Part shown: piece by piece, positions 23,020 through 62,046 of the stretch
Layout: every line of letters begins with the position of its first letter
Numbering within the stretch: the stretch's first letter is position 1
Source: a virus
IMG/VR virus record: IMGVR_UViG_3300017917_000321
Span: 1 to 64,000 of that record
DNA length: 64,000 nt
Reading direction: 5' to 3' (one strand)
Position numbers and translations under genes: made by a program
The notes under the pieces: generated by a model
The model's database searches: none
Told to the model about the DNA's origin: nothing
The model's input: the letters and a program-made list of their open reading frames with translations, nothing else

Positions 23020-23373
23020 GTGGACGAAAGATTAGATAAAGCTCTCAAATTCAGCAACTATATGGTTACGCTGAACAATCAAAAAAGAGTAATCAAAGAG
23101 AAATTTTTTGAAGACTTATTATACTTTAACAGTGGTTGCCAATTTACTGTTACAAAAGAATTAATTACGTTTGTTGGATTGCTGATTGATCGCGGCAACG
23201 ATACTGATGTCGTATTAACAGATGATAACGACATACCTGCTAAAATTGGAGATTTAAAATCCTTTTATGCTGACATTTTAAACACTTATTTTACAGCAGC
23301 CAACAATTATCATACCAAGTATGAAGATTTAAGAAAAAATAGATCAGTAGAGAAGCTAGTTAACTATGAATAA
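23020..23373 (+). CDS. Hypothetical phage protein, first gene of the enzyme cluster
   Basis: GTG at 23020 follows GGAGG (23010-23014); overlaps the start of the next gene. Confidence 0.6.
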   Translation: MDERLDKALKFSNYMVTLNNQKRVIKEKFFEDLLYFNSGCQFTVTKELITFVGLLIDRGNDTDVVLTDDNDIPAKIGDLKSFYADILNTYFTAANNYHTKYEDLRKNRSVEKLVNYE

Positions 23374-24223
23374 AACACGAGGTGTTGTTTTATTTGCTCG
23401 AAATAATGGCAGGCTTGATTATGTTAAGCAGGCTGTGTTTTTAGCAAAAAGAATAAAAGAATACTTAGATTTACCTACCACGGTTATTACAGATAGTTTT
23501 AACTATCTACAATCAAATTTTGATGTTTCTGTATTTGATAAAATTATTCAAGTTGAGTACATGGAAACAAAAAATAATAGAGCATTTTTTGACGGATCTC
23601 TTTCTCATAAAACTGCTCCTTTTAAGAATGACATGCGCGATGGCGTATACAATTGGTCACCATATGACGAAACACTGTTAATGGATACTGATTATATTAT
23701 TTGCAATGATCTTTTACTAAAGTGTTTTGATATGCAGCACGATCTCATGTTGTTTAAGGAATCGTATGACCTAGCAGATCATAGAGACCATACTGAATTT
23801 GAACATATAAGTGATTATACGATTGATTTTTATTGGGCTACTGTAGTTTTCTTCAGAAAGACCCCGGAGAATGAAGTATTCTTTGATTTAATTAGACATA
23901 TTAAGCAAGAATGGAATCATTACAGAAGATTGTATCAGGTTGAATCTAGTCTTTTTAGGAATGACTTTGCTTTTAGTATAGCAGTTCATATTATGAATGG
24001 TTTTGCAAAAGGCTCTTTTGTAGCACCTCTCCCAGGCAAGCATCTATACACCACTGATAGAGATGTTTTACAGAGATTAGACAACGATTCTATGATTTTT
24101 TTAGTAGAGAAAAAAGATCACTTAGGCGAATATACTATGCTTAAGACAGAAAAACAAAATGTGCATGTTATGAACAAGTTTAGTCTTGAACGTATTATTG
24201 ATGCGGAAATGAAAAATGTCTAA
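23366..24223 (+). CDS. GT-A fold glycosyltransferase (nucleotide-diphospho-sugar transferase)
   Basis: GVVLFA..DYVKQA..SPYDETLLMDTDY (DxD motif), GT8/GT77-like layout. Confidence 0.7.
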   Translation: MNKTRGVVLFARNNGRLDYVKQAVFLAKRIKEYLDLPTTVITDSFNYLQSNFDVSVFDKIIQVEYMETKNNRAFFDGSLSHKTAPFKNDMRDGVYNWSPYDETLLMDTDYIICNDLLLKCFDMQHDLMLFKESYDLADHRDHTEFEHISDYTIDFYWATVVFFRKTPENEVFFDLIRHIKQEWNHYRRLYQVESSLFRNDFAFSIAVHIMNGFAKGSFVAPLPGKHLYTTDRDVLQRLDNDSMIFLVEKKDHLGEYTMLKTEKQNVHVMNKFSLERIIDAEMKNV

Positions 24224-25055
24224 AGGAATCTTAGTTTTAGCTCAAAATAACTCAACTGTTGATTACGTTGAGCAAGCCTGCCTATTAGCAATGAGCTTAA
24301 AGGTTACTAACCCTAACACAGATATTAGTATAGTTACAGATGACGCAGTTCCTGACGTGTACAAACATCTATTTGATAAAATAATTCCTATTCCTTTTAA
24401 TGATGATGCAGCTTCAGTTGACTGGAAGATTGAGAACAGATGGAAACTATATCATGCTACACCATATGATCAGACAATGGTGTTAGATACAGATATGCTT
24501 GTGTTACAGGATATAACAAGTTGGTGGAAATTTTTAGAAAACTATAAGTTATATTTTACATCTAAGGTATTTACATACCGAGGTGAAGTAGTTACTAGTG
24601 ACTATTATAGAAAAGCATTTACAGCCAACAATCTTCCTAATCTATACAGCGGCCTTCACTATTTTGAAAAAAGTGATCTAGCATTAGAATTTTATACTTG
24701 GCTAGAACTTGTTATGCAAAACTGGGAATTATTTTACGGAATGTATGTAAAAGAAAACTATCCTGGTCGTGTTAGCGTTGATGTAAGCGCAGCGATTGTT
24801 GCTAAAATTTTAGATTGCGACGAATCAATAACTAACAAGTATGCAAGTTTTCCTACATTTACTCACATGAAGCCTTATATTCAAAATTGGAATAGAACTC
24901 CTGAAAAATGGCAAGATTGTCTCGGAGTATATATTAATCGAAACTGTGAAATTAAAATTGGAAATTTTTCTCAGTCTGGTATATTGCACTACACTGAAAA
25001 AGACTTCGTTACTCCTGAAATTATAGAAAGATATAGGAATTACCTTCATGTCTAA
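24216..25055 (+). CDS. GT-A fold glycosyltransferase (paralog of the preceding gene)
   Basis: GILVLA..DYVEQA..TPYDQTMVLDTDM (DxD), late HMK and HY motifs. Confidence 0.7.
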   Translation: MSKGILVLAQNNSTVDYVEQACLLAMSLKVTNPNTDISIVTDDAVPDVYKHLFDKIIPIPFNDDAASVDWKIENRWKLYHATPYDQTMVLDTDMLVLQDITSWWKFLENYKLYFTSKVFTYRGEVVTSDYYRKAFTANNLPNLYSGLHYFEKSDLALEFYTWLELVMQNWELFYGMYVKENYPGRVSVDVSAAIVAKILDCDESITNKYASFPTFTHMKPYIQNWNRTPEKWQDCLGVYINRNCEIKIGNFSQSGILHYTEKDFVTPEIIERYRNYLHV

Positions 25056-26433
25056 TTTTTCTGACTTCTTAAAATCCTTAAACATTGAGGTAACAGTATC
25101 AAGTGTTTCTTATGTTTACTATGATCCTCTTACAGGAAAAATAGTAAAAATAGCAAATAAACTAGATCCGGATGATACGCTTGCAACACTAGAAGTTCAG
25201 CATGACAGTGTTGCTGAAATTATTAACGGTACAAAGAGTTCTGAGAACTTTATTGTTGAATATGATGTTGCATTAAAGCAACTAGCACTTAGAGAAATAA
25301 CATACGAAGAACATCTTACCAAGATTGAGTCTCGACTTCATCGGTTACCAGTTGTTAGAACAACAACAGATGAAGCAGGAGATAAATCGTCAATTATTTT
25401 TGACAATATCTATGACGGAGTTGAAGTTTTTTTATGGACTTCCGGTAGTAGACATTTTAAGGATAGTTTAGTTTGGTATAAAAACAATGTTTATAAACTA
25501 TTGGAAAATATTGAGTCTGTTAAATTTGATACAACCAAATCAGAATTATTTGTAGCAAACGTTTCTCTACCAGATATTAAAAGTGTAAATCATTTCGTTG
25601 AATATAAAACAAGTTTTGACCCCATATATGAAGGAATTCATGTTGATGTTTGGTATAGAGAATTGCCACATTTCAAGGGTCAACACGTTTGGGCACATAA
25701 TACTGTTTATAGATACAAATTAGACGTAGCAGAAAATGAGCCTTTTGACTTAGAGTATCTTGATATTATTGAAGAAAACGTTTTTCTTTATGCTGATTCA
25801 AACAAGTATTTGAGTTTTGTTTCTATTTTATCTCCCGGAGATAAGATACTGGATAACAATAAATTATACCTGTTTGTGGACAAGAAGTTAAATGTTAATC
25901 CAAATGAAAAGTCTATATTATTCTATTCATCTAGATACGAAGGTTTATATTATGATGAAATTGCAAATAGACTTACAAAATTTTCATTCATAGAACGTAA
26001 TAACAAATTAACTGCTAAGTCAGAAGTCTTAGATGATGAAGTTGTGTTAACACCGAGCGTACATATCTCTAATGGACAAAAGGTATTAATTGGAAAATCA
26101 CTGTATCAGGCAAACACTCTAGATGAAAGAGATATTGACGTAAACGTTGTTCAAAATAATTTAATAGGCTGCTGGGAAATATATCTTGGAAGAAAAACAA
26201 AGAAAAGCCTTGAGATGATAAATTATATAGGTCATGATATTTTATATTTTAGTGTAACTGCTAAACATGACCCTAATGTTCTTTATAGAACTATGGATTT
26301 TTCTTTAACTAAATTATTAGCTAATAAGGTCCAAAGATATCCGTATCAGTACAAATGGGAAAGCGATCGCACCGACGTAAGTGTGTATACCGCAAAGTTT
26401 TTTGAAACCTATTCACATGAGATTTTAGAATGA
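25048..26433 (+). CDS. Hypothetical protein with internal CBM5/12-like repeats
   Basis: 461-aa ORF with overlapping start and stop; internal duplication FDxIYxGxxVxxW...HFK...VW..N.VY. Confidence 0.55.
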   Translation: MSNFSDFLKSLNIEVTVSSVSYVYYDPLTGKIVKIANKLDPDDTLATLEVQHDSVAEIINGTKSSENFIVEYDVALKQLALREITYEEHLTKIESRLHRLPVVRTTTDEAGDKSSIIFDNIYDGVEVFLWTSGSRHFKDSLVWYKNNVYKLLENIESVKFDTTKSELFVANVSLPDIKSVNHFVEYKTSFDPIYEGIHVDVWYRELPHFKGQHVWAHNTVYRYKLDVAENEPFDLEYLDIIEENVFLYADSNKYLSFVSILSPGDKILDNNKLYLFVDKKLNVNPNEKSILFYSSRYEGLYYDEIANRLTKFSFIERNNKLTAKSEVLDDEVVLTPSVHISNGQKVLIGKSLYQANTLDERDIDVNVVQNNLIGCWEIYLGRKTKKSLEMINYIGHDILYFSVTAKHDPNVLYRTMDFSLTKLLANKVQRYPYQYKWESDRTDVSVYTAKFFETYSHEILE

Positions 26434-27350
26434 GCAAGATTAAAGTTGTTGACTATGACATCATATACCTTAGCTATGATGAACCTAATGCAGAAAAAAA
26501 TTACGCAGACCTCTGTAAAAAGATTCCGTGGGCTAAACGTGTACACGGTGTTAAAGGCAGTGATGCTGCACACAAAGCCTGCGCTAGGCTAAGTGAAACT
26601 GATAGATTTATTACTGTTGACGGTGATAATACTGTCAGAGAAGAATTTTTAAATCAAGAAATTGATTTTAAAGAGCATCATGATCTTACTAATTGTGTGA
26701 TTAGTTGGAGCGGCAGAAATGTTATCAACGGACTAATGTACGGTAATGGCGGATTGAAATGTTGGCCAAAAGAATTTGTGTTAAACATGAAAACGCATGA
26801 AGCAGCAGATCCCAAAAACAAACATGCTCAGGTAGATTTTTGTTGGGATGTGCAGTATATACAAATGAACAGTTGCTATTCAGATGTACACAACAATGCT
26901 AATCCTGCACAGGCATGGAGAGCAGGATTCCGCGAAGGTGTTAAGCTAGCTCTTGATAGAGGAATTAAACCCACAAAAGAAGAGTTTTTAAAAAACCATT
27001 GGCGTTGTTTGCATTGGCTCTATATATGGACTATGGTAGGCGCCGATGTTGAGTACGGCAAATGGGCAATACTAGGAGCCAGAGAAGGTCTTTTTAAAAC
27101 AATGCTTACTGACTGGGATTATGTTAACGTTCGCGATTTCGAATATCTAAACGATTTATGGTCAAAAGAATTTGAAGGCATGGACGAAGATGTAATGGAT
27201 GCTAGAATTAAATTCCTTGGCCGAGAACTCAGCGAAAATCTAAATGTTCCTATAGGTGAAATACTCTCACCAGATCAAAGTAAGTTTTTTAAAACAGTAT
27301 ACGAGCATCCTGCTAGAACAGATCATCAGAGATTTATTGAACGGCTATGA
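26430..27350 (+). CDS. GT2-like glycosyltransferase
   Basis: YDIIYLSYDEPNAE..RVHGVKG..AHK..FITVDGD (DxD)..YGNGGLK..AWRAGFREGVKL. Confidence 0.65.
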   Translation: MSKIKVVDYDIIYLSYDEPNAEKNYADLCKKIPWAKRVHGVKGSDAAHKACARLSETDRFITVDGDNTVREEFLNQEIDFKEHHDLTNCVISWSGRNVINGLMYGNGGLKCWPKEFVLNMKTHEAADPKNKHAQVDFCWDVQYIQMNSCYSDVHNNANPAQAWRAGFREGVKLALDRGIKPTKEEFLKNHWRCLHWLYIWTMVGADVEYGKWAILGAREGLFKTMLTDWDYVNVRDFEYLNDLWSKEFEGMDEDVMDARIKFLGRELSENLNVPIGEILSPDQSKFFKTVYEHPARTDHQRFIERL

Positions 27351-28585
27351 AAAAGCAGGATAAGTTGCGCACACTATTATATCTTGAATATGAGCCTGAT
27401 CAAATTTTTTATATAAACGGGTTTAAAAAAGATTTAATAATAAATTTTTTAACAGACGGCTGGGAACCGACCGGCTTATATGCGCTATGGTCTGACTTTG
27501 ATCAAATTTTTAAAAAAACTACTGCAATACCTGAATCTGAAAAATTCTTTTATCCAATAGCTATTAGTCGATGGGAAGTTTCTGAAATTTTTAATCAGAT
27601 AACAATCAGTAAAAAGATAATTAAAAAGGTCAAGCAAGGCCAGTGCAAAATTCTACTTATATGTCCCTTTGAAGGTTGGACATGGTCTTGGTGGGATAAC
27701 CTAGCCTTCATTTTAAAGACAAAATTTGAACTTGACAATGAGCATATTGTTTTTCTTTCAGCTAACTATTTCCCACACAAAACTTTTAAAACAATAGTTT
27801 TTAATACCTGGGAAAAGCAAATATTTTCTAATTATTCAACATACGAGCATTACGAAAGAAGTGTAAAAGCAATAGAGACACCTAGATCAAATAAATTCAT
27901 ATGTTTAAATAGGCGTCCTTCAATTCATAGATACGCAGTTGTTTCGAGTTTATTTGATAATAGAGATCAGGGAATTTTAACCTGCGCCTTAAAAGGAAGT
28001 TATAGTGACTGGTATCAAAATTGGGTAGAAGAAAATTTCTTAAATGAGTATCCGGAACTTTCAGACAAATACAAGAAAGAAATTAAACCCAGTCTTCCTT
28101 TGACATATAATGATAATATTAATCCAGAAGTCGATAACCCTGCTGCTAACGAATGGGGTAATGTAGAAAAATATTATTCAAGCTATCTTTATATTGTTAC
28201 TGAGACTTTCTTTGAAAATAAAGCACAGGGTCAGGATACTCTATTTCTAAGCGAAAAGATTTTTAAACCTATAATATTTTTTCAGCCATTTGTAGCATTT
28301 GCAAGACCTGGCACTCTTAGATTAATGCAAGATCTAGGTTATAAAACATTCGGTGAGTTTATTGACGAGACTTACGATTTGATTGACGACGATAAAGAAA
28401 GATTGTATAAAGCAGTTGATAGTGTTAAAAAGTTTATCAGTCTATCAAATGAAGAATTAAGAAATACAATGATTAAAATGGCACCAATTTTTAATCATAA
28501 TTATAATGTCCTAAAACAGAATTGGGAATACAAGATTTATGACAAACTTAAAAACGATTTATATAGCTGTTTGCACGGAGAATAA
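27347..28585 (+). CDS. Putative GT-B (GT10-like) glycosyltransferase
   Basis: FICLNRRP..HR..YIVTET..FLSEKIFKPI..GYKTF..IDETYD resembles the EN..Y.TEK donor-binding motif of GT10 fucosyltransferases. Confidence 0.5.
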   Translation: MKKQDKLRTLLYLEYEPDQIFYINGFKKDLIINFLTDGWEPTGLYALWSDFDQIFKKTTAIPESEKFFYPIAISRWEVSEIFNQITISKKIIKKVKQGQCKILLICPFEGWTWSWWDNLAFILKTKFELDNEHIVFLSANYFPHKTFKTIVFNTWEKQIFSNYSTYEHYERSVKAIETPRSNKFICLNRRPSIHRYAVVSSLFDNRDQGILTCALKGSYSDWYQNWVEENFLNEYPELSDKYKKEIKPSLPLTYNDNINPEVDNPAANEWGNVEKYYSSYLYIVTETFFENKAQGQDTLFLSEKIFKPIIFFQPFVAFARPGTLRLMQDLGYKTFGEFIDETYDLIDDDKERLYKAVDSVKKFISLSNEELRNTMIKMAPIFNHNYNVLKQNWEYKIYDKLKNDLYSCLHGE

Positions 28586-28588
28586 TTA

Positions 28589-29857
28589 ATGTCTCATCTT
28601 TTTGAAAAACTTAGAAACTCAAAAACATTCTGTATCATGCCATGGATTCACTGTGCAACACAGACTAATGGTGCTGTGCAGTTATGCTGTGTGGCTTCTC
28701 CTATTAAAGAATTAAATCTAAACAATATGACATGGGATGAAGTATGGAACAGTGAACAGTATAAAGATGCAAGATTAAAAATGCTATCAGACGAAAAGGT
28801 TTCTTATTGTACGAATTGTTATAAGGAAGAAGCAGCAGGAATTAAAAGCCATAGACAGAATGAAAACGAAGTCTGGGCAAATAATTGGAGTCCTATTAAA
28901 TTACATGAGTTAAGGAAAATTGTTGCTGACACAAACGATGACGGTTCTATTGATAGCGGTATTGTTAGTGTTGACTTTAGACTAGGAAATACCTGTAATT
29001 TACAGTGTGTAATGTGCAGGCCTCATGACAGCAGCAAATGGTTAAATGATTCAAAATTCCTTGCTGAAAATCTAACAAGCGAAGCTAAATGGGACTGGAA
29101 ACACAAAAGTAACATTGTTATAGAACAATTTGAATGGTATAAGAATCAAAAATTTTGGGATAGCTTTTATGAATCTGCGCATAATATTAGAGATCTAATA
29201 TTCGGCGGCGGAGAACCTATACTCATCAAACAGCATAAAGAACTTATCAAACATCTTGTTAAGATCGATCATGCTAAAAATGTTGAAATTCGTTATCATA
29301 CTAACGGAACAATGTTGGATGAAGAATTGTTGGAACTATGGACACACTTTAAGAAAGCTCATATCATGGTGAGCCTAGATGCTCATCAAGACCTAAACAG
29401 TTACATTCGTTATCCTGCCAAGTGGGAAGATATAGAAAAGCATCTAAGAATCTATGATAATACAACTGGCGGTGATATTATACTAGATATCAATTGTACT
29501 GTACAGGCTCTTAATGTAAATTATCTGCCAGAGTTTGCAGAATGGATCTGGGCCCAAGATTATAAGAAGATTGGTAAGAGAACACTGTCATCTCCGTTCC
29601 ATACAGCAACACTGCACTGGCCAAAGTATCTATGCACCAAGGTTTTGCCACTAGAATCAAAAAAACGTGTGGCTGAAAAGTTAAACACATTCATGGCTAA
29701 GCATCCTAATAATCCAGAGATACAAAAATGGTCTGCAATCGTAGATTTTATGATGAGTGAAGACTGGTCTGACATGCTGGATCAAACAAAAGACTATCTC
29801 AGAATGCTGGATAAAATTAGACCTGTGCAATTTCCTGAAATATACAAACTGTTATAA
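28589..29857 (+). CDS. Radical SAM protein with N-terminal twitch-type Fe-S domain
   Basis: FCIMPWIH..CC..CTNC; CNLQCVMC (CxxxCxxC); GGGEP; YHTNG. Confidence 0.9.
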   Translation: MSHLFEKLRNSKTFCIMPWIHCATQTNGAVQLCCVASPIKELNLNNMTWDEVWNSEQYKDARLKMLSDEKVSYCTNCYKEEAAGIKSHRQNENEVWANNWSPIKLHELRKIVADTNDDGSIDSGIVSVDFRLGNTCNLQCVMCRPHDSSKWLNDSKFLAENLTSEAKWDWKHKSNIVIEQFEWYKNQKFWDSFYESAHNIRDLIFGGGEPILIKQHKELIKHLVKIDHAKNVEIRYHTNGTMLDEELLELWTHFKKAHIMVSLDAHQDLNSYIRYPAKWEDIEKHLRIYDNTTGGDIILDINCTVQALNVNYLPEFAEWIWAQDYKKIGKRTLSSPFHTATLHWPKYLCTKVLPLESKKRVAEKLNTFMAKHPNNPEIQKWSAIVDFMMSEDWSDMLDQTKDYLRMLDKIRPVQFPEIYKLL

Positions 29858-35491: not shown

Positions 35492-35498
35492 GAGGAGA

Positions 35499-36816: not shown

Positions 36817-36819
36817 ATA
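36814..36819 (+). promoter_or_regulatory. Late-promoter-like TAAATA
   Basis: GATAAATA overlaps the stop codon upstream of the 90-aa ORF. Confidence 0.45.
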
Positions 36820-36850
36820 TTAGAACAACAGTATTTTAAAGGATACAATC

Positions 36851-37123: not shown

Positions 37124-37129
37124 GGTTGA

Positions 37130-45632: not shown

Positions 45633-45660
45633 TATACAACACGAATAGAAGGAAACCGCA

Positions 45661-54504: not shown

Positions 54505-54507
54505 ACA

Positions 54508-56466: not shown

Positions 56467-56914
56467 AATTTCTCAAGCAAACTTTAAATCCTTAATGGAG
56501 CAACAGAATATTACAGACCAAACCGTAGATAGCTCTAACGATTTCTATATCTGCTTAAATTCCACAGGATGGATACACAGTATCCCTTATTTTAAAGAAG
56601 AACACGCAAATGTAATCAATCTATATTTTGACGATGTTGAGTCATCAGGTCCAAAAGAGATACAATGGTTTGGCGGAGAAACAAAAATCATTGATGCAAT
56701 AGCAATGAACGAAAGTCAAGCAGAACAGCTAGTTAGGTTTATTTCTACAATACCTTCCGATGCTATTGTTTATATTTATTGTGCTAAAGGAAAGTCACGC
56801 TCGAGAGCTGTTGAAGATTTTATACTGAGCATTGAAACTAATATTGATACTATATCTGAAGGATCTAATCAACATGTTTATAAAAGTTTAAGAGAAGCCT
56901 ATGCTAGACTTTAA
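56453..56914 (+). CDS. Protein-tyrosine/dual-specificity phosphatase-like protein
   Basis: YIYCAKGKSRS (CX5R); LYFDD acid loop. Confidence 0.75.
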   Translation: MKINRISQANFKSLMEQQNITDQTVDSSNDFYICLNSTGWIHSIPYFKEEHANVINLYFDDVESSGPKEIQWFGGETKIIDAIAMNESQAEQLVRFISTIPSDAIVYIYCAKGKSRSRAVEDFILSIETNIDTISEGSNQHVYKSLREAYARL

Positions 56915-58082
56915 AATTAAAGAATTACCTAACATAAAGTTTTCACATACAGCACTACTCAATTATTATAATGAAGTAGTGCAAAATTATCAACATCTAA
57001 AATGGACACCGGCAGGTATTGATACTTTAAATCACAAAGTTGGCGGAGTTTATAGTTGGGCAATACAAAGTAACTTAAAGGACCCTTCGAAGCCCTGTCC
57101 TCCTTACGACATTAAAAACGACGTTGACATACATCCTAACAATGATTTTAAAGTCCCAACAGAACTAATTTTTGGATTTGGAAAAATAGTAGTTGAAGCG
57201 TTTCCTGAAGTTAGACAAACTGTTATAAGCGCACATCCTCCTGGAACAGTAATCGGTGAACACATAGATAATGATGAATTTGTAAAAATACATATACCTA
57301 TTAAAGCTAATAATAACAGCTTCTTTGTATTTGGCGATGAGAAATACAATTTAGAAGAAGGCAAGGCGTATCTTATTAATACAACACTACCTCATGGCAC
57401 TACAAACGAAGGTGATACAGATAGAATACATTTAATTTTTAAATTTCCAATTGAACTAGTTGATACTGTATTATCTACTGATTGGATACTTGATCCTAGC
57501 TTCATTGATTTTGATCTTTTAGAGATAAAAAATTTAGAGTTTGATTTTAACGAACTTGTTGATTACTATAATACAATTAAGCAAGACTATCAATATCTTA
57601 AATGGACAATGCCAGACATTCCTAAAACAAACCTAGGTGGTCTTTACGGATTTGGAATTTTAACAAACAAAGACAATCCTGACGACCCTACCGATCCTCC
57701 GGGAATACGTACGGATAAGAAAAAATTTGAACCTTTGATTAAACCTACAAAGATGCTAACAGGATTTGCTAAGAAGATCTACGAAAAGATTCCGTATCTA
57801 GAGGAATTGGTAATAACAGGTCATCCTGCTAACAGCGGTATCCCACCGCATATTGATAAGGATGAGCATATTCGTATACACTTACCTATTTTTGCTAATG
57901 ACAGATCATATTTTATGATAAACGGAAATGAGTATGTGTTAGAGCCCACTAAGGTATATCTAGTTAACACAAAAAGGATACATACTACTATAAACAGTGG
58001 AAATGAAGATAGAATACATCTACATTTTAAAATACCGATTGGTAAAATAGACTACTTTTTAAAGACCGGAGTAAAACTATGA
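56901..58082 (+). CDS. Tandem two-domain AspH-like 2OG-Fe(II) oxygenase
   Basis: Two full repeats: HIDN..IHIPI..YLINT..HGT.N..DRIHL and HIDK..IHLPI..YLVNT..HTT.N..DRIHL. Confidence 0.82.
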   Translation: MLDFKIKELPNIKFSHTALLNYYNEVVQNYQHLKWTPAGIDTLNHKVGGVYSWAIQSNLKDPSKPCPPYDIKNDVDIHPNNDFKVPTELIFGFGKIVVEAFPEVRQTVISAHPPGTVIGEHIDNDEFVKIHIPIKANNNSFFVFGDEKYNLEEGKAYLINTTLPHGTTNEGDTDRIHLIFKFPIELVDTVLSTDWILDPSFIDFDLLEIKNLEFDFNELVDYYNTIKQDYQYLKWTMPDIPKTNLGGLYGFGILTNKDNPDDPTDPPGIRTDKKKFEPLIKPTKMLTGFAKKIYEKIPYLEELVITGHPANSGIPPHIDKDEHIRIHLPIFANDRSYFMINGNEYVLEPTKVYLVNTKRIHTTINSGNEDRIHLHFKIPIGKIDYFLKTGVKL

Positions 58083-59317
58083 AAATAGCAGTTGTTGGTG
58101 GTGGTACAGCAGGTTGGATGGCTGCTGCATATCTAAGTAAAACATTCGATGTTACGATTATCGAAAGTGCAGATATACCTATTGTGGGTGTAGGAGAAAG
58201 CACACTTCCTATTGTTAAGAAGTTTTGCGATGATTTAGGACTTGACGAAGCAGATTGGATGCCATTATGTCAAGCAGAATACAAGCTAGGTATTAGACAT
58301 GAAGGTTGGAAAAAGGATCGAAAAGATCCTTGGTGGCATTGGTTCTTATATGACAGAAACAAAGATAGCGAAATGCTCAAGCACGTAGAAAATCATACAG
58401 TACCCCCTAGCGGTAGTTATGCTTATCACGTAGATGCTATGAAATTTGGTTCAGCAGTAATGAAGCCTGTTGCCCTTAAAAACGGAGCCAAACATTTAAT
58501 AGATACTGTTGAAGATGTAGCGTTAAATGCTGATGGAGAGATTGACCATTTATTGTTAAAAAATAACGGTCCTAAATGTTTTGACCTTTATGTTGATGCA
58601 ACAGGATTTGCAAAAGTTCTAGCAAAGAAAGTGGGAATAAACTATCTTCCATACGAACATTTAATCAATGACAGTGCTGTGGCCTGTCCTCAAGAACCTG
58701 CACCTATTCAGAATAGATACACTATTACTAGGACTATGAACCACGGTTGGATGTGGGAAATTGCACTACAGAATCGTAGAGGCGCAGGTTATGTTTTTAG
58801 CAGTAAACACTGTTCAGACGAAGAAGCGATTGAAGAATACCTACAGTATTTTCCAAACTCGGATAGATCGAAACTGCGTGTTATAAAATTCAAACCTGAG
58901 TATGCAGAAAATCCATTCTACAAAAATGTAGCAACAGTTGGTATGAGCTGCGGATTCATTGAACCTTTAGAAGCTAATAGTATATGGATGATATCTTATA
59001 ATGTATTGGGACTTTATAGATGTTTAACAGAGGGAAAGTCTTTTGATACATTTAATAGAGCCTTTAGAAAAACCAGTTTTGAAATGTATGATTTTATCCT
59101 AAGTCATTATACACTGTCTGATAGAGATCATACAGACTACTGGAGATACTATAAGGATCTAGAACAGAAGATTAATACTAGAGATAGAGTTAAAGAAAAG
59201 AGTAAACTAATGGATGTAGAACTAGGAAGACATCCTGGGATATTCTATCCCTACAGTTGGTGGACTAAAGACAAATACTTTAATCAAGACGCCACGCTTT
59301 ATACTCAGGAACATTAA
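58079..59317 (+). CDS. Flavin-dependent halogenase (tryptophan halogenase family)
   Basis: GGGTAGW, IVGVGEST, AEYKLGI (catalytic-Lys position), YAYHVDA, YVDATGF, GWMWEI (WxWxI), GFIEPLE, HY..S.R..T.YW. Confidence 0.85.
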   Translation: MKIAVVGGGTAGWMAAAYLSKTFDVTIIESADIPIVGVGESTLPIVKKFCDDLGLDEADWMPLCQAEYKLGIRHEGWKKDRKDPWWHWFLYDRNKDSEMLKHVENHTVPPSGSYAYHVDAMKFGSAVMKPVALKNGAKHLIDTVEDVALNADGEIDHLLLKNNGPKCFDLYVDATGFAKVLAKKVGINYLPYEHLINDSAVACPQEPAPIQNRYTITRTMNHGWMWEIALQNRRGAGYVFSSKHCSDEEAIEEYLQYFPNSDRSKLRVIKFKPEYAENPFYKNVATVGMSCGFIEPLEANSIWMISYNVLGLYRCLTEGKSFDTFNRAFRKTSFEMYDFILSHYTLSDRDHTDYWRYYKDLEQKINTRDRVKEKSKLMDVELGRHPGIFYPYSWWTKDKYFNQDATLYTQEH

Positions 59318-59840
59318 CACGCCATAGCTTTTGCTTGGTGTACATGTACTCAAAGTTGTCATCGACTAGCGTAAAGATTCCAGTCCTAGCTACCCTAGGA
59401 ACCATGTTTTCATTCATGCGTTGACTCTTGCCGTTGGTTGATGACTTTTCTATATTAGTTGTGAAATAAAATTCAGCAACTGGATTAATATTAGTAATAA
59501 AATCAATCTGCATATTTAGAACTTCCATTAGCTGATAGCTGGCTCTAAAACTATGCTGACCAGTGGTGTATCCTGGTAGCGTTGCTCCTCTATAGAATAC
59601 TCTATATGCATTTGTATTCAGTTCTTTCATAGAATGAACACCGCATAAATTAAAAATAATATCTTTGTCTACATCGTACCCTACAAAAAACTGTCCATGA
59701 GGCATCTTCATTTTTTCTAAATTTATTGCCTTAAATGAACTGTTATTATAGTAACCTAATGAGTCGCATCTATTACAAAAATCTTGCAACTTATTATGAT
59801 CACTATCTTGGAGGAGTCTAAACAGAATATTAGAATTCAT
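59280..59840 (-). CDS. GNAT-like acyltransferase (putative)
   Basis: Beta-strand/G-V-H core, YRVFYRGATLPGY, FYFTTN..F.LV pattern resembles the GNAT fold; ATG 59840 overlaps the upstream gene end. Confidence 0.4.
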   Translation of the reverse strand: MNSNILFRLLQDSDHNKLQDFCNRCDSLGYYNNSSFKAINLEKMKMPHGQFFVGYDVDKDIIFNLCGVHSMKELNTNAYRVFYRGATLPGYTTGQHSFRASYQLMEVLNMQIDFITNINPVAEFYFTTNIEKSSTNGKSQRMNENMVPRVARTGIFTLVDDNFEYMYTKQKLWRVNVPEYKAWRLD

Positions 59841-60501
59841 TCTTCCATGTTGTTCTATTTGCTTCTTGTCTTCTACCATAAAACTCTAACGTATTCATGT
59901 CAAAAATATCACCAGTTGATCGACCATTGATAATGCATTCGGCTAATTGAGATGTAGCACTAACAGGCATAAACATTATGTGCTCATCTTTAGCCAGTGT
60001 AGACATGTCAAACTTTGTTGAATTGTATCCTACTAGTATAGGAGGAGGGTACTCGGTCATACCATACCAATTAGCAACTATCTGTACACCGTGATTTCTA
60101 AATGTGTCAATAAACTCCTGAGTAATTTTATTACTACCTGTGACCATGTATCTTACACAGCTCATGTCTAACTGTGCAAATCCTTTGGTCTTTTTTAGTA
60201 ATTCAAAGTGTCTCGGTATAAGACTAATAAAAGTAGGCTGTACTTCTTTAAACAGTTCAATGTATGAGTACGCATTAAATGCAGCAGTGCATAGGTGTGC
60301 GCCACTTAGCATTGCTGGATAAGCAGTTATTGTATAGTGTGCTATGGTGTTAGATGGAAACACATCTAACACTCTATCCTCTGGTCCTAGTTTGCTTTCT
60401 TTAATAGAGCGTAATGCGTAGGACTTCATTCTTTCCCAACTGTGGTTTACCTTTTTAGGTTCATCTGTACTGCCTGACGTGAATAGAGTAATACCGCTCA
60501 T
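59830..60501 (-). CDS. Truncated AMP-binding (ANL adenylate-forming) enzyme
   Basis: FTSGSTDEPK (A3), WYGMTE (A5), STGD (A7), FYGR (A8); 223 aa. Confidence 0.75.
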   Translation of the reverse strand: MSGITLFTSGSTDEPKKVNHSWERMKSYALRSIKESKLGPEDRVLDVFPSNTIAHYTITAYPAMLSGAHLCTAAFNAYSYIELFKEVQPTFISLIPRHFELLKKTKGFAQLDMSCVRYMVTGSNKITQEFIDTFRNHGVQIVANWYGMTEYPPPILVGYNSTKFDMSTLAKDEHIMFMPVSATSQLAECIINGRSTGDIFDMNTLEFYGRRQEANRTTWKNEF

Positions 60502-61322
60502 TACAAATCCTTTAGTATTTCGTTAGCTGTGTGTAAATGCACACCTGTGCCAGGATGGGCAGAGATGTTATTATTTTGTTTCATTACATCACGGGCGTAA
60601 CGTTCGCTAACATTATATATGTTTAAGCTGTCCATGTCAATGCTTTTAAGGTTGAAATCCTGTACAAATTTGTCGTCTGGATAATAGGATAGTTCAATTA
60701 ATTTACAGCCTAGGCTTTTACAAAACTCTCTAAGCATTGTTGAATAACACTGTGCTTCTTTTAGCAAAAAGTCTGTGTTCGTTAATAAATTGTATGCATC
60801 AATATACGTTGGATACTCAAGTGGAATATGTTTTCCCGAGAATGTTAGAGATTTGTCATTATCAAAAAATGTATATCCATGAATTGGGGGGTATTCAAAA
60901 ATGCATATTTTTGGAGTAGTAAATTTTTTTATGTAATTAAAAAATGAATACACCTGTAGTTTAATACTAAAGGTAGGTCCTGCATAGTTAATGTAATCAA
61001 AATTTAAACGATCTGCAATGATATCAGAAAATCTTTTTTCTTCTGGTATGCCTATCCCCATGGCATAACTAGTACCTGACACATAGACAAGGTTTGATGA
61101 TAACGTGTCTAACTCTTTAGTCATACGCAATCCGTGAGAATTAAAATTATATACAACCGGAGTATCTTTATACATCCAATCATCAGGCATATATTTTAGA
61201 TTTCTTTCAAACAGATCTTCTCTATCAGGACCGTAAAACCGGTAAGACCCCGGCTTCATGCTGTCATGAGTATACGGCCAATCCTGAACGTTGTATAGTT
61301 GTACTGTGTTTAACTTAGACAT
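60501..61322 (-). CDS. SGNH-like protein
   Basis: YNFNSHGLR; VSGTSYAMGIG; NYAG; C-terminal SAHPG..H. Confidence 0.55.
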   Translation of the reverse strand: MSKLNTVQLYNVQDWPYTHDSMKPGSYRFYGPDREDLFERNLKYMPDDWMYKDTPVVYNFNSHGLRMTKELDTLSSNLVYVSGTSYAMGIGIPEEKRFSDIIADRLNFDYINYAGPTFSIKLQVYSFFNYIKKFTTPKICIFEYPPIHGYTFFDNDKSLTFSGKHIPLEYPTYIDAYNLLTNTDFLLKEAQCYSTMLREFCKSLGCKLIELSYYPDDKFVQDFNLKSIDMDSLNIYNVSERYARDVMKQNNNISAHPGTGVHLHTANEILKDL

Positions 61323-62046
61323 CGGTTGGCTTGAATTTAAAGAGAGACTCTAAATCTTCCTTTTTAGGAGTTCCGTAAAGTATTACCCAATCATCTCCTT
61401 CGTGATTAATAACAGAATGAAATACTGCTGTGTTTACAAGATATACTTTTCCAGGTTGTAGTATGTATTCTCTTTCAGCAGTATGACCAAAATACCATAC
61501 GCAGTTTTCATGTATCTGAAGGTTCATGTGCATGCGAGCAATAACATTAGGATAAGGCACGTCTACATGTAAGTGCAGTCCTGATCCTTCTGGTATAACT
61601 GTTACTCGCATGTTTAGTAGATACTGTGCTGCCTTGTTGTATAGCTTTTCAAATGCACCAAATTTATACTTTGATAAAATTGGATTAGATTGATCGCTAA
61701 AATTAGGATCACCAATTTCTGGATACAACTCTTTATTTGCTATGAAACTAAAAGGAAGAGGGTCGTAGCGTTCTTTTGACCAATTTAACAACCACCAATA
61801 AGTGGGGTTACCGCTATCGAATGATGGATCGGCAGCTTGCCATCGCCTCACCATATTCGAATCATAATATTTTTCGTATTCCTTACTTACTACAAATTTA
61901 GCTGATTGTAAATTGAGTTTGACCTGTTGGTACCATTCTAACAGACCTGTGTGATCTACGCTAAAAGGCAACTCGATAATATCCCAATCTATATTTTGCA
62001 GATCGGAAGTCTTTAAATTTTCAATGTCTGTTATATATCGCTGCAT
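61315..62046 (-). CDS. AspH-like 2OG-Fe(II) oxygenase
   Basis: PEGSGLHLHVD..RMHMNL..PGKVYLVNT..HSVIN; N-terminus similar to 54508..55239; ATG 62046 preferred. Confidence 0.75.
   Translation of the reverse strand: MQRYITDIENLKTSDLQNIDWDIIELPFSVDHTGLLEWYQQVKLNLQSAKFVVSKEYEKYYDSNMVRRWQAADPSFDSGNPTYWWLLNWSKERYDPLPFSFIANKELYPEIGDPNFSDQSNPILSKYKFGAFEKLYNKAAQYLLNMRVTVIPEGSGLHLHVDVPYPNVIARMHMNLQIHENCVWYFGHTAEREYILQPGKVYLVNTAVFHSVINHEGDDWVILYGTPKKEDLESLFKFKPTDV

What the first reader, a model, noticed from the sequence alone, without database searches (positions are those of the whole stretch)
23020..62046. ~39-kb phage-encoded tailoring cluster between tail-fibre genes: candidate virion-decoration pathway
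Seen: about 40 tightly packed genes, mostly tailoring enzymes, with fibre/structural genes on both sides and TAAATA late-type motifs inside. They include 9 radical SAM, 7 AspH-type domains, 6 putative glycosyltransferases, Ugd, 3 SGNH and 2 PP-loop proteins, plus halogenase, sulfotransferase, methyltransferase, kinase, phosphatase, adenylation, GNAT-like and FMN oxidoreductase genes. I could not recognise any exporter, flippase/polymerase, leader protease, precursor peptide or nucleotide-modification gene. Known: some large phages and giant viruses glycosylate their virions, and AspH-family enzymes hydroxylate protein residues. Inference: a late-expressed pathway that hydroxylates/glycosylates virion proteins and then tailors the glycan (radical oxidation, methylation, acylation, sulfation, phosphorylation, halogenation), possibly for host recognition or shielding. 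I am not aware of a characterised phage pathway of this breadth.
Basis: partly seen in the sequence, partly recalled or inferred. Interest (0 to 1): 0.92.

Follow-up and report, generated by a model that had tools for sequence, protein, structure and literature searches.

The report
Jumbo-phage radical-SAM sugar-tailoring island
An uncultured freshwater giant phage carries, behind its tail-fibre genes, 44 soluble enzymes that most likely build and chemically edit an unusual sugar decoration, probably on its own fibres, though the product has never been measured.

Summary
The block is real: 44 close-packed genes (23008-62064). They include 9 radical SAM enzymes (5 of the uncharacterised N-terminal-twitch family NF033640), 7 AspH-type HxD..H domains, a Trp-type halogenase, Ugd, and 7 glycosyltransferase-like genes. 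Sulfotransferase and GNAT calls got no tool support. Kinase, phosphatase, PP-loop, most SGNH and the 42755 methyltransferase calls rest on motifs or sub-threshold hits.

It is not one indivisible cluster. The head (23008-29857) follows the fibre genes in 80 related viral loci, in a complete 360-kb relative, and in cultured Ralstonia phage RsoM2USA. The tail varies. In the complete relative the radical-SAM/oxygenase module lies about 110 kb from the fibres, beside ribonucleotide reductase. Its five-gene core also sits in Bacteriovoracaceae chromosomes with no fibre genes.

New here: the AspH-type gene 52307 and its neighbour 53023 (predicted GT-A plus methyltransferase folds) occur fused, in both orders, in 11 of 16 longer homologues. 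This links hydroxylation to glycosyl or methyl transfer.

Best reading (0.45): a late, cytoplasmic glycan-building and tailoring system, probably acting on virion fibre proteins. The product and target are untested.

This scan has already flagged the same kind of island on other DNA (174 notes, at least 150 genomes).

The parts
87..14819 (+). Giant structural protein, 4,910 aa (left flank, not part of the island)
   Evidence: Weak CBM_5_12, FG-GAP and T7 tail-fibre N-terminal hits. It has a 5,442-aa homologue in G001. It has a weak similarity (25-26% identity) to RsoM2USA ORF361, which was identified in virions by mass spectrometry (PMC8504454 passages).
14825..22914 (+). Fibre module: 14825; three fibres with a shared N-terminus (15454, 17510, 19445); paralogues 20945 and 21925
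   Evidence: Collar domain in 15454. Shared N-termini at 31-34% identity. Syntenic in 80 viral loci. ATAAATA lies upstream of 14825, 19445 and 21925.
23008..23373 (+). Conserved 121-aa protein that opens the island; function unknown
   Evidence: No family hit. Homologues sit at the same position in G003, G001 and RsoM2USA ORF354.
23366..25055 (+). Two paralogous GT8-like (GT-A, DxD) genes, 23366 and 24216
   Evidence: In a profile search against the PDB, 19 of 19 hits are glycogenin-1/2, with E 0.012-0.08. No Pfam hit. At least 584 viral relatives.
25048..26433 (+). Repeat protein resembling the CBM5/12-like region of the giant protein
   Evidence: BLASTP to giant-protein residues 2727-2856, E 3.7e-5. 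Present in 36 of 39 loci that have at least 9 kb downstream.
26430..27350 (+). GT2-like gene (paralogue of 40131)
   Evidence: 34% identity to 40131. The fused G001 orthologue hits PF00535 at 25.5 bits (cut-off 23.3). Seven of 120 listed homologues carry PF00535 or PF13641. No PDB profile hit.
27347..28585 (+). GT-B fold glycosyltransferase-like gene (paralogue of 38317)
   Evidence: AF2 model, mean pLDDT 64. Nearly all of the 50 best VIA matches are GT-B glycosyltransferases, with Z up to 11.3. Atlas lead to GT10 at 0.79.
28589..29857 (+). N-terminal-twitch radical SAM enzyme; closes the conserved head
   Evidence: NF033640 at 367.8 bits. An N-Twi rSAM follows 26430 in 53 of 54 testable loci.
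29860..31373 (+). Two esterase-like (possible SGNH) genes, 29860 and 30633
   Evidence: 29860 hits DUF6071 at 27.8 bits. 30633 hits Lipase_GDSL at only E 0.2. GCS/GDS motifs were read by eye.
31455..32675 (+). UDP-glucose/GDP-mannose dehydrogenase family (Ugd)
   Evidence: PF00984 at 60.6 bits and PF03721 at 58.3 bits.
32636..40120 (+). Variable middle section. Genes: N-Twi rSAM 32636; 33772; PP-loop-like 34367; DUF2061 35445; NMO-type FMN oxidoreductase 35878; 36851; PP-loop-like 37130; GT-B-like 38317; 39503
   Evidence: Pfam and NCBIfam results. SGGxDS motifs read by eye. Absent from G001. Partly present in L010, L011 and L017.
40131..47222 (+). Conserved module core. Genes: GT2-like 40131; rSAM-B 40774; rSAM-SPASM 41772; methyltransferase-like 42755; N-Twi rSAM 43354; rSAM-B 44646; HxD..H oxygenase 45661; rSAM-B 46314
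   Evidence: Pfam and NCBIfam results. A 41772-like gene is present in 32 of 32 loci and a 42755-like gene in 30 of 32 loci. Homologues of 40774 (54%), 43354 (44-46%), 41772, 26430/40131 and 42755 occur in Bacteriovoracaceae. The rSAM-B group is nearest to viperin-like chains, E 2e-12.
47211..51044 (-). Reverse-strand operon: repeat proteins 47211 and 48352, small kinase-like 49562, N-Twi rSAM 50004
   Evidence: Weak Kelch hit and weak LRR hits. RIO1 at E 0.0046. NF033640 at 216 bits. Colinear in G001.
51115..52314 (+). N-Twi radical SAM enzyme
   Evidence: NF033640 at 334.4 bits. ATAAATA lies 43 nt upstream.
52307..54504 (+). AspH-type oxygenase 52307 overlapping 53023 (GT-A plus class I methyltransferase folds); a functional pair
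   Evidence: PF05118 at 47.1 bits. The 53023 model has mean pLDDT 72. Its N-terminal domain matches GT-A folds at Z 8-9.6 and its C-terminal domain matches methyltransferase folds at Z 8-9.5. Eleven of 16 longer homologues of 53023 are fused to a 52307-like domain, in both orders.
54508..58082 (+). AspH-type 54508 and 55232; Rossmann-like 55885; CX5R phosphatase-like 56453; tandem AspH-type 56901
   Evidence: PF05118 hits. HxD..H is invariant in 7 of 7 domains and the distal Arg is present in 5 of 7. DSPc at E 0.055.
58079..59317 (+). Compact (412 aa) flavin-dependent Trp-type halogenase
   Evidence: PF04820 at 303 bits. PDB matches to Trp halogenases at E 1e-55 and to VirX1 at 3.8e-45. GxGxxG, WxWxI and FIEP motifs are present.
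59280..62064 (-). Reverse-strand set: 59280 (unknown), 59830 (AMP-binding central fragment), 60501 (unknown), AspH-type 61315
   Evidence: PF00501 at 71.6 bits, covering profile positions 168-330 of 384. PF05118 at 23.4 bits. The same split arrangement occurs in G001 and G002.
62113..63363 (-). Right-flank fibre-like protein with Mtd_N and (GNVT)n repeats
   Evidence: PF18454 at 40.1 bits. ATAAATA lies 23 nt upstream. No homologue in G001 or in G003 at this position.

Best explanation
The block is a composite island of soluble enzymes, probably expressed late, that sits between the tail-fibre operon and the replication region.

The head (23008-29857) holds a small conserved protein, two GT8-like genes, a CBM-repeat protein, a GT2-like gene, a GT-B-like gene and an N-twitch radical SAM enzyme. 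It is an ancestral extension of the fibre operon.

The tail is an accordion of paralogues that differs between relatives. It has two main parts:
- A portable core: GT2-like, viperin-like rSAM, rSAM-SPASM, methyltransferase-like and N-twitch rSAM genes.
- An oxygenase arm: seven AspH-type domains, a GT-A/methyltransferase protein, a halogenase and a split adenylating enzyme.

Most likely mechanism, inferred. Cytoplasmic transferases use nucleotide sugars (Ugd supplies a uronic acid) to build a glycan directly on a protein acceptor. The acceptor is most probably one of the co-transcribed fibre proteins. AspH-type enzymes hydroxylate a position that the fused or neighbouring GT-A/methyltransferase then glycosylates or methylates. 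Radical SAM enzymes, esterase-like proteins and the halogenase diversify the product.

Shown here: the gene content, folds, synteny, promoter-like motifs and gene fusions.

Inferred: the timing, the glycan product and the virion target.
For: - Enzyme content.
- GT folds and profiles.
- Solubility: only 35445 has membrane-like segments among the island's genes. No Wzx, Wzy, transporter or protease family appeared in the Pfam scans.
- Head next to fibres. Of 80 viral loci, 62 of 68 with at least 4 kb upstream have a fibre-family hit and 66 of 68 have a 20945/21925 hit. Of those with at least 4.5 kb downstream, 54 of 54 have a 26430-like gene and 53 of 54 an N-Twi rSAM. All core genes are co-oriented in 80 of 80.
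- The same head sits after the fibres in the complete relative G001 (DNA polymerase 57% identical), in G003, and in cultured Ralstonia phage RsoM2USA ORF347-355.
- Variable tail: among 39 loci with at least 9 kb downstream, 40131 is present in 27, Ugd in 22, 27347 in 14 and 41772 in 9.
- Promoter motifs. ATAAATA is shared by fibre genes and the island genes 30633, 36851, 51115 and 54508. The four clean TTGACA-N17-TATAAT-type sites all lie in the replication region.
- Functional coupling of hydroxylase and transferase: 11 of 16 longer 53023 homologues carry a 52307-like domain, either N- or C-terminal, and one carries an rSAM-B domain.
Against: - No chemical, proteomic or expression data exist. 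No listed sequencing run holding this DNA is on record as RNA.
- In G001 the rSAM/AspH/halogenase module is at 5-29 kb. The fibres are at 132-135 kb. The module's neighbours are an FkbM methyltransferase and ribonucleotide reductase.
- The module core occurs in Bacteriovoracaceae chromosomes without any fibre-gene homologue. One example is 10 rSAM genes plus two GT2-like genes and a methyltransferase-like gene at 1.403-1.428 Mb of a 2.9-Mb record. The chemistry is therefore not virion-specific.
- The 80 syntenic loci are relatives of one clade, so their shared order may be inherited rather than selected.
- Three sigma70-like matches lie inside island coding sequence.
- GT8 and GT2 support is weak. 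GT8 E-values are 0.012 or higher, and GT2 support is indirect.
- N-x-S/T sequons are not enriched in the fibres overall.
- In RsoM2USA, none of the 10 abundant virion bands analysed were reported as glycosylated (PMC8504454 passages).
Confidence: 0.45

Rival explanations
1. The island makes a free small molecule, such as a tailored sugar, nucleoside or aminoglycoside-like compound. The molecule would be used inside or outside the infected cell, for example against host defences or competitors, and would not be attached to the virion.
For: - The portable core occurs in Bacteriovoracaceae without fibre genes.
- rSAM-B genes are nearest to viperin-like chains, which act on nucleotides. E is 2e-12, over the N-terminal 115 residues only.
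- A Trp-type halogenase and an adenylation fragment are typical of natural-product pathways.
- In G001 the module lies next to nucleotide-metabolism genes.
Against: - No exporter, carrier protein, condensation or cyclase family was found.
- Seven GT-like genes and the conserved position of the head after the fibre genes are not explained by this reading.
- Late-type motifs are shared with structural genes.
Confidence: 0.2
2. The enzymes remodel a host envelope glycoconjugate during infection, such as LPS core, lipid A or another surface glycan. The effect would be to block superinfection or to keep progeny from sticking to debris.
For: - From general knowledge, not tested here: GT8, GT2 and GT-B enzymes of LPS core synthesis are soluble or peripheral; the AspH family PF05118 includes lipid A and ornithine-lipid hydroxylases; WaaP-type sugar kinases are protein-kinase-like.
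- WaaB and WaaG appear among the GT-B fold matches.
Against: - There are no membrane-anchored enzymes, polyprenyl-phosphate transferases, flippases or polymerases.
- In 5 of 5 Bacteriovoracaceae genomes, the homologous island is not on the contig of, or is more than 100 kb from, any Wzx-family or flagellin gene.
- Relatives infecting very different hosts (Ralstonia, aquatic bacteria) keep the same head.
Confidence: 0.12
3. The system modifies a peptide or protein in a RiPP-like way without a glycan. Radical SAM/SPASM enzymes, AspH-type hydroxylases and the halogenase would act on amino-acid side chains of a ribosomal product.
For: - SPASM or twitch domains are present in 6 of 9 rSAM enzymes. 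Weak secondary hits go to peptide maturases.
- From general knowledge: AspH enzymes hydroxylate protein residues, and some flavin halogenases act on peptides.
Against: - No precursor-like ORF fits. Only 1,710 non-coding bases exist in 89 kb, and the one short island gene, 36851, has no Cys and was found only in L017.
- No PqqD/RRE, leader protease or transporter family was found.
- Fibre proteins have 0-1 Cys and no EGF-type AspH consensus.
- Seven GT-like genes and Ugd point to sugars.
Confidence: 0.08
4. The 39 kb is not a pathway at all. It would be a hypervariable dump of unrelated accessory genes at the late/early boundary, with only the short head acting as a unit. Separately, part of it could glycosylate phage DNA.
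For: - Content between the fibres and the replication genes differs strongly among G000, G003 and G001.
- The module is separable.
- The GT-B model also resembles the T4 DNA beta- and alpha-glucosyltransferases.
- A first-stage note reports a 7-deazaguanine system elsewhere on the contig. That system was not tested here.
Against: - Gene order 40131-60501 is colinear over about 24 kb between phages whose DNA polymerases are 57% identical.
- Fusions link AspH-type, GT-A/methyltransferase and rSAM-B domains.
- Paralogue families (5 + 3 rSAM, 7 oxygenase domains, 3 GT pairs) indicate in-place diversification of one kind of chemistry.
- No base-modifying enzyme family was found in the block.
Confidence: 0.1

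Closest known systems
Mycobacteriophage virion glycosylation (Che8/Corndog type; Freeman et al. 2023, seen only as cited in passages of PMC12619734)
   Same: Phage-encoded glycosyltransferases lie next to structural genes and are proposed or shown to decorate virion proteins in the cytoplasm.
   Different: - As recalled, that system uses a few GTs and no radical SAM, 2OG-oxygenase or halogenase genes, and it modifies capsid and tail-tube C-termini.
- Here there are 44 genes, the target is unknown, and no homology to that system was tested.
NCBIfam NF033640, N_Twi_rSAM (twitch domain-containing radical SAM protein)
   Same: Five genes (28589, 32636, 43354, 50004, 51115) score 183-411 bits against a cut-off of 170. 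All have an N-terminal Cys-rich domain plus CxxxCxxC.
   Different: - The family name describes architecture only. My three paper searches for radical SAM in phages turned up no characterised member.
- No solved structure matches 43354 at E <= 0.1.
Collagen lysyl hydroxylase/glycosyltransferase LH3 with ColGalT1
   Same: A 2OG oxygenase is coupled, and sometimes fused, to a GT-A transferase that acts on the new hydroxyl. LH3 and ColGalT1 appear among the weak fold matches of 53023. A 52307-like domain is fused to 53023 homologues in 11 of 16 longer forms.
   Different: - The oxygenase here is AspH-type (PF05118), not a lysyl hydroxylase.
- Fold matches are generic GT-A (Z 8-9.6).
- 53023 also has a methyltransferase-like domain.
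- The substrate is unknown.
Giant-virus glycosylation clusters (chlorovirus and mimivirus)
   Same: Virus-encoded, host-independent, cytoplasmic glycan synthesis for virion proteins. PBCV-1 A64R, Mimivirus R699 and Chlorella virus hyaluronan synthase are among the fold matches of 53023.
   Different: - Those are eukaryotic viruses.
- As recalled, their clusters lack radical SAM expansions.
- Only fold-level likeness was seen here.
Marine T4-like environmental viral genomes rich in radical SAM genes (Nishimura et al. 2017, PMC5332604)
   Same: A T4-like 183-kb viral genome with 12 radical SAM genes is reported (passage read). 43354 homologues are common in Tara samples.
   Different: - That paper treats the genes as Fe-S-cluster clients and proposes no pathway.
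- I did not test whether that genome carries this island.
- Its Table S1E could not be opened.
Cyanophage halogenase VirX1 (PDB 6QGM)
   Same: A phage-encoded flavin-dependent Trp-halogenase-family enzyme. 58079 matches the VirX1 chain at E 3.8e-45.
   Different: - 58079 is 412 aa against about 530 aa.
- It matches bacterial Trp 5-, 6- and 7-halogenases better (E about 1e-55).
- It sits in an oxygenase arm, which from recall VirX1 does not.

Membership tests
Radical SAM superfamily (PF04055) | Pfam score above the 29.5-bit cut-off, plus the CxxxCxxC cluster motif | tested here: met
   Nine of 9 genes score 31.6-54 bits. Nine of 9 carry CxxxCxxC.
NF033640 N_Twi_rSAM | Full-length match above 170 bits, with an N-terminal twitch/SPASM-like Cys domain before the radical SAM core | tested here: met
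   Scores are 367.8 (28589), 182.9 (32636), 410.8 (43354), 216.0 (50004) and 334.4 (51115) bits. Pfam places SPASM at residues 6-85 and the rSAM core after it in 28589, 43354 and 51115.
Viperin family (NF038283 / TIGR04278) | Score above the 180-bit cut-off over the full length | tested here: not met
   40774, 44646 and 46314 score 42-53 bits and match only the N-terminal part. The PDB profile match covers about 115 residues.
Aspartyl/asparaginyl beta-hydroxylase family (PF05118) | Pfam score above 22.6 bits, plus the metal-binding HxD/E...H motif | tested here: met
   52307, 54508, 55232, 56901 (two stretches) and 61315 score 23.4-79.9 bits. HxD..H is invariant in 7 of 7 aligned domains. 45661 has no Pfam hit and is included by alignment only.
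AspH proper (EGF-domain Asp/Asn hydroxylase) | A protein substrate with the EGF consensus C-x-D/N-x4-F/Y-x-C-x-C | tested here: not met
   The consensus occurs in none of the 91 contig ORFs. Fibre proteins have 0-1 Cys.
Flavin-dependent tryptophan halogenase (PF04820) | Pfam match, plus the GxGxxG and WxWxI motifs | tested here: met
   303.2 bits. GGGTAG at residue 7, WMWEI at 224 and FIEP at 293. Substrate was not tested.
Glycosyltransferase family 8 (glycogenin/LgtC type) | GT-A fold with a DxD motif and a significant family match | tested here: inconclusive
   The A2 profile gave 19 of 19 PDB hits to glycogenin, but at E 0.012-0.08 and over residues 13-108 only. No Pfam, PHROG or NCBIfam hit.
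Glycosyltransferase family 2 (PF00535) | Pfam score above 23.3 bits | tested here: inconclusive
   The window proteins 26430 and 40131 have no hit. The fused G001 orthologue scores 25.5 bits. Seven of 120 listed homologues carry PF00535 or PF13641.
GT-B fold glycosyltransferases (incl. GT10 fucosyltransferases) | A two-Rossmann GT-B fold. For GT10, a family-specific sequence match. | tested here: inconclusive
   The fold is supported: nearly all of the 50 best chains are GT-B, with Z up to 11.3 on a model of mean pLDDT 64. GT10 itself is only an Atlas lead at 0.79, with no Pfam or PDB sequence hit.
Wzx/Wzy-dependent surface polysaccharide locus | A flippase, a polymerase and an initiating polyprenyl-phosphate transferase in the cluster | tested here: not met
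   No such family appeared in the Pfam scans of all 44 genes. One membrane-like protein only, DUF2061.
RiPP biosynthetic gene cluster | A precursor peptide gene, a recognition element (PqqD/RRE), and a leader protease or exporter | tested here: not met
   None was found by Pfam. Non-coding space is 1,710 of 89,086 bases. Short unannotated precursors inside coding overlaps were not searched exhaustively.
Phage virion glycosylation system | Demonstrated glycan on virion proteins that depends on phage GTs | not testable with these tools
   This needs virion glycoproteomics. Only synteny with fibre genes and shared promoter motifs are available.

The most novel reading that the evidence does not exclude
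Jumbo phages and predatory Bdellovibrionota share a protein-decoration system of a kind not yet described. In it, AspH-type oxygenases hydroxylate residues or sugars on fibre-like adhesins, GT-A/GT-B enzymes glycosylate them in the cytoplasm, and expanded families of N-terminal-twitch and viperin-like radical SAM enzymes carry out new carbohydrate radical chemistry on the bound glycan. The rapidly changing enzyme set would then give each lineage a different fibre coat for host or prey recognition, or for shielding. The link to predator fibre proteins is my own speculation from recall. No call tested it.
Probability: 0.25. Interest if true: 0.9.

Novelty: new variant of a known kind. Interest (0 to 1): 0.72.

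Why it matters
If the reading holds, phage virions can carry glycans tailored by radical and oxygenase chemistry on a scale so far known only from bacterial natural products and O-antigens. That would bear on host recognition, on phage resistance and on how metagenomic "auxiliary" genes are read.

The island is widespread. At least 584 viral contigs carry the head, and 4,247 homologues of one rSAM enzyme were found at E <= 1e-10.

It holds five members of an enzyme family (NF033640) for which I found no characterised reaction. The oxygenase-transferase fusions give a concrete starting point for biochemistry.

It is directly testable, because the cultured, non-human-pathogen phage RsoM2USA carries the minimal eight-gene version.

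Tried and rejected
**Searches that found nothing or too little**
- Megablast of 24 kb of the island against 50,697 phage records: no match.
- tblastn of 53023 against phages: no match. tblastn of 26430: only RsoM2USA. tblastn of 43354: 8 records at 23-28% identity.
- The search for related loci with 56901: no relative.
- PHROGs on 20 unannotated proteins: only four weak matches and one clear match to families of unknown function.
- Relaxed Pfam (E up to 10) and NCBIfam on the unannotated proteins. The only leads were GDSL E 0.2, DSPc E 0.055, sulfatase 0.057 and nicotinamidase 0.039. Nothing for 34367, 39503, 42755, 45661, 53023 or 60501.
- PDB searches:
  - A1 gave nothing meaningful.
  - A3 gave nothing.
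  - A6 matched only LarE at E 0.43.
  - A7 gave nothing relevant.
  - A8 gave weak LRR hits.
  - 43354 alone gave nothing.
  - 52307 alone matched proline hydroxylase and AspH at E 0.005-0.09.
- Foldseek on the 53023 model: no hit at E <= 0.001.
- Longer homologues of 53023 of 864 aa or more: none.

**Ideas tested and set aside**
- Sequon test. N-x-S/T is not enriched in the giant protein or in most fibres. It is modestly enriched in 62113 because of its GNVT repeats (z 2.4). I treat this as no evidence.
- EGF-type AspH consensus: absent.
- Exact T4 late promoter TATAAATA: 1 site against 12.1 expected. I dropped it in favour of ATAAATA.
- Moraphage paper (PMC12619734): not this lineage as far as its passages show, and it has no mention of radical SAM.
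- amoC-phage preprint: irrelevant, HpnH only.
- Cyanophage S-SCSM2R paper: it lists a radical SAM maturase as an "antibiotic synthesis gene", with no test.
- Sequencing runs. The stretch is held by pond, freshwater, reservoir, aquatic and estuary DNA runs from 10 studies, counting the possible source sample. No RNA holder is listed.

**Limits on what is claimed as unpublished**
- That no paper characterises this island rests only on searches.
- Supplements were closed. Table S1E of PMC5332604 and Supplementary Table 3 of PMC8504454 may hold relevant annotation that I could not see.

Full report
**Setting**

The window is the first 64 kb of an 89,086-bp IMG/VR virus record that CheckV rates 25% complete. 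Its DNA polymerase, which lies beyond the window, is most like those of Agrobacterium phage Atu_ph07 (46%) and Rak2/PBECO4-like jumbo myoviruses. The genome is therefore probably about 350 kb.

Near-identical DNA is held by pond, freshwater, reservoir, aquatic and estuary metagenome runs. No holder is on record as RNA. The window has no tRNA. GC is 0.32-0.36 in the island, against 0.34-0.40 in the flanks.

**The observation**

From 23008 to 62064 there are 44 ORFs, mostly overlapping or abutting. Only 1,710 of 89,086 bases on the contig are non-coding.

Confirmed by Pfam:
- Nine radical SAM genes, all with CxxxCxxC.
- AspH-type PF05118 in 52307, 54508, 55232, 56901 (twice) and 61315.
- A Trp-halogenase-family enzyme at 303 bits. 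It matches solved Trp halogenases at E about 1e-55 and cyanophage VirX1 at 3.8e-45.
- Ugd.
- An NMO-type FMN oxidoreductase and DUF2061.
- A central fragment of an adenylating enzyme.

NCBIfam places five of the rSAM enzymes (28589, 32636, 43354, 50004, 51115) in NF033640. This family has the twitch/SPASM-like cluster domain in front of the radical SAM core. The other four are three mutually related genes (40774, 44646, 46314) and one canonical rSAM-SPASM gene (41772). The nearest solved relatives of the three related genes are viperin-like enzymes, but only over about 115 N-terminal residues and far below family cut-offs.

An alignment of the six Pfam AspH domains with 45661 shows an invariant HxD..H in all seven. 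A distal Arg is present in five.

**Gene calls that did not hold up as well**

- The proposed sulfotransferase (39503) and GNAT (59280) found no support in Pfam, PHROGs, NCBIfam or PDB profiles.
- The kinase (49562; RIO1, E 0.0046) rests on a sub-threshold hit.
- The phosphatase (56453; DSPc, E 0.055, plus a CX5R motif I read by eye) likewise.
- The PP-loop proteins are weak. 37130 hits at E 6e-4, below cut-off. 34367 has only an SGGxDS motif, and a LarE match at E 0.43.
- The methyltransferase (42755) and two of the three SGNH calls rest on motifs or sub-threshold hits.

**Glycosyltransferases**

None of the six proposed GTs has a Pfam hit. Other evidence is as follows.
- 23366/24216. A profile of this family with orthologues hits only glycogenin (GT8): 19 of 19 hits, but at E 0.012-0.08.
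- 26430/40131. No PDB match. The tandem-fused orthologue in G001 passes PF00535 (25.5 bits against a 23.3 cut-off). Seven of 120 listed homologues carry a GT2 Pfam domain.
- 27347. An AlphaFold model (mean pLDDT 64, poor for residues 1-81) matches GT-B glycosyltransferases in nearly all of the 50 best chains, with Z up to 11.3. The matches include fucosyltransferases, POGLUT1 and the T4 DNA glucosyltransferases.
- 53023. This is the most conserved unknown: 71% identity to G001 and no hit in any family library. Its model (mean pLDDT 72) has an N-terminal GT-A domain (Z 8-9.6, a uniform list of GT-A enzymes) and a C-terminal class I methyltransferase-like domain (Z 8-9.5). These Z values are only slightly above the tool's stated background. 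I rate the folds as probable, not certain.

**The block is composite**

All-against-all comparison shows paralogue families: 5 + 3 rSAM enzymes, 7 oxygenase domains and three GT pairs.

Head and its relatives:
- Three viral contigs share the order fibres-23008-...-28589-Ugd-34367-35445-38317-39503-40131 at 50-79% identity, but lack several middle genes.
- A search with the GT8-like profile found at least 584 viral relatives.
- In the 80 best loci the order giant protein-14825-three fibres-20945(/21925)-23008-23366-24216-25048-26430-N-Twi rSAM is kept on one strand in 80 of 80.
  - 62 of 68 loci with at least 4 kb upstream show a fibre-family hit.
  - 54 of 54 with at least 4.5 kb downstream show 26430.
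  - 53 of 54 show an N-Twi rSAM.
  - Further downstream the content varies: of 39 loci, 40131 is in 27, Ugd in 22, 27347 in 14, 40774 in 14 and 41772 in 9.
- These loci belong to one clade, so the shared order could be inherited rather than selected.

Module and its relatives:
- Thirty-two further contigs found with 43354 carry 41772-like genes in 32 of 32 and 42755-like genes in 30 of 32.
- Where they are long enough, these contigs also carry 47211-50004 and 52307-54508.

More distant witnesses:
- G003 has the same layout with a shorter island. It ends at 53023 and runs straight into the replication genes. It lacks four AspH-type genes, the halogenase, the adenylation set and 62113.
- G001 is a 359,563-bp record rated 100% complete, with a DNA polymerase 57% identical.
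  - It keeps 23008-like, the GT8-like pair, 26430-like and an N-Twi rSAM directly after its fibres at 132-140 kb.
  - It carries the colinear module 40131...60501 at 5-29 kb.
  - That module is flanked by small unknown ORFs on one side and an FkbM methyltransferase plus nrdA/nrdB on the other.
- Cultured Ralstonia phage RsoM2USA (343,806 bp) has, in order:
  - a fibre-like ORF355;
  - then homologues of 23008, 23366, 24216 and 26430 (46%);
  - then an N-Twi rSAM, 40131 (44%) and 42755.

  All of these are annotated hypothetical. Its paper identifies the neighbouring ORF361, ORF359 and ORF356 as virion proteins by mass spectrometry. It does not mention these enzymes (passages read).

**Bacterial counterpart**

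A scan of one genome per prokaryote species with the GT2-like profile returned 79 loci.
- Many loci titled as MAGs carry the fibre genes too. These are evidently phage contigs binned with bacteria.
- At least ten loci titled Bdellovibrionales, Bacteriovoracaceae, Halobacteriovoraceae or Oligoflexia carry homologues of 40774 (52-62%), 43354 (43-46%), 41772, 26430/40131 and 42755 without any fibre-gene homologue.
- In a 2.9-Mb Bacteriovoracaceae chromosome record, the island at 1.403-1.428 Mb holds two GT2-like genes, a 42755-like gene and ten rSAM genes.
- In five such genomes the island is on a different contig from, or more than 100 kb from, every Wzx-family and flagellin match.

The core chemistry is therefore not tied to phage virions. 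In these bacteria it is also not part of a Wzx-type polysaccharide locus or a flagellin locus.

**Expression signals**

- ATAAATA occurs 13 times in 89 kb. Eleven sites lie 9-43 nt upstream of a same-strand start, and nine are in the 1.9% of the contig that is non-coding. They precede 14825, 19445, 21925 and 62113 (fibre genes) and 30633, 36851, 51115 and 54508 (island genes).
- The full T4 late box TATAAATA is depleted: 1 site against 12.1 ± 3.6 expected.
- Clean TTGACA-N17-TATAAT-type sites precede four replication-region genes. Three looser matches lie inside island coding sequence.

Co-expression with the fibres is therefore plausible but inferred.

**A new functional link**

52307 (AspH-type) and 53023 overlap by four bases. 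A full-library search with 53023 gave 505 homologues at E <= 0.001. I compared 16 of the longer ones with the contig's proteins.
- Eleven also contain a 52307-like domain (27-43% identity), either N-terminal or C-terminal to the 53023-like part.
- One contains an rSAM-B-like domain.
- One contains a SPASM-like fragment.

Fusion in both orders argues that the oxygenase and the GT-A/methyltransferase protein act on the same substrate in succession. This is as in collagen LH3/ColGalT1, which appear among the weak fold matches. It also ties the radical SAM enzymes to the same process.

**Reading**

The evidence favours a cytoplasmic glycan-building and tailoring system. This rests on seven GT-like genes, Ugd, an oxygenase-transferase couple, esterase-like genes, and the absence of membrane machinery.

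The conserved position of the head after the fibre genes across phages of very different hosts makes the fibre proteins the most probable acceptor. That step is inferred. It is weakened by G001 and by the bacterial islands.

Rivals kept open:
- A free small molecule.
- Host-envelope remodelling.
- RiPP-like protein chemistry without sugar.
- An unrelated assortment of genes, or DNA glycosylation.

**Novelty**

Virus-encoded virion glycosylation is known: mycobacteriophages as cited, and giant viruses from recall. A T4-like marine viral genome with 12 rSAM genes has been noted without interpretation.

My searches found no paper describing this island or any reaction of NF033640 enzymes.

The scan itself has met the same kind of island many times: 174 notes in at least 150 genomes. 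Follow-up agents reached similar conclusions, including the Ralstonia phage and predatory-bacteria links. I re-derived both links from my own calls (84-87 and 116-123).

What this window adds:
- An unusually large version, with 44 genes and an oxygenase/halogenase arm.
- The demonstration in a complete relative that this arm is separable from the fibres.
- The oxygenase-transferase fusion evidence.

Noticed in passing
L010:12180-14718 (also L011:5345-7877): In relatives, the Ugd gene is fractured. The N-terminal part runs on in frame after ...GGGC into an intein-like sequence. A free-standing 268-aa ORF follows. A third ORF then ends its intein-like part in ...VVHN before CHPRD and the rest of Ugd. 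This looks like a split intein with a separate endonuclease-like gene. The window's own Ugd (31455-32675) is intact.
   Followed up: partly
window:1-64000: The T4 late-promoter octamer TATAAATA is strongly depleted (1 site against 12.1 ± 3.6 expected). The 7-mer ATAAATA sits almost only 9-43 nt upstream of gene starts.
   Followed up: yes
window:59280-61322 (-): An adenylating enzyme appears split. 59830 holds only profile positions 168-330 of 384 of AMP-binding, flanked by 60501 and 59280, which have no family hit. The same three-gene arrangement is kept in G001 and G002, so it is not a sequencing break.
   Followed up: partly
window:62113-63363 (-): A fibre-like protein with an Mtd_N domain and a run of about ten GNVT/GDVS tetrapeptide repeats (N-x-T sequons). 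It is absent from G001 and from G003 at this position. No reverse transcriptase was looked for.
   Followed up: no
L051:5460-7058 and one search hits: The 26430-like and 40131-like GT2-like genes are fused in tandem (about 530 aa) in most environmental homologues. In this window they are separate genes 13 kb apart.
   Followed up: partly
G016:C1:1403235-1428092 and G012:C9:74846-99833: Bacteriovoracaceae chromosomes hold their own expansion of 7-9 N-twitch radical SAM paralogues per genome. Most are clustered with rSAM-SPASM and GT2-like genes.
   Followed up: partly
G000:C1:64867-77133 (beyond the window): Four near-consensus TTGACA-N17-TATAAT-type promoters precede replication-region genes on the minus strand. 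This marks a sharp early/late boundary just right of the island.
   Followed up: partly
L010:11443-12183 and 14721-15335; L052:8882-9724: Relatives carry other tailoring genes in the variable part. G001 has an FkbM-type methyltransferase (Pfam hit). L010 has an FkbM-like ORF and an ORF with an RSGST sulfotransferase-like motif; both L010 calls were read by eye only.
   Followed up: partly
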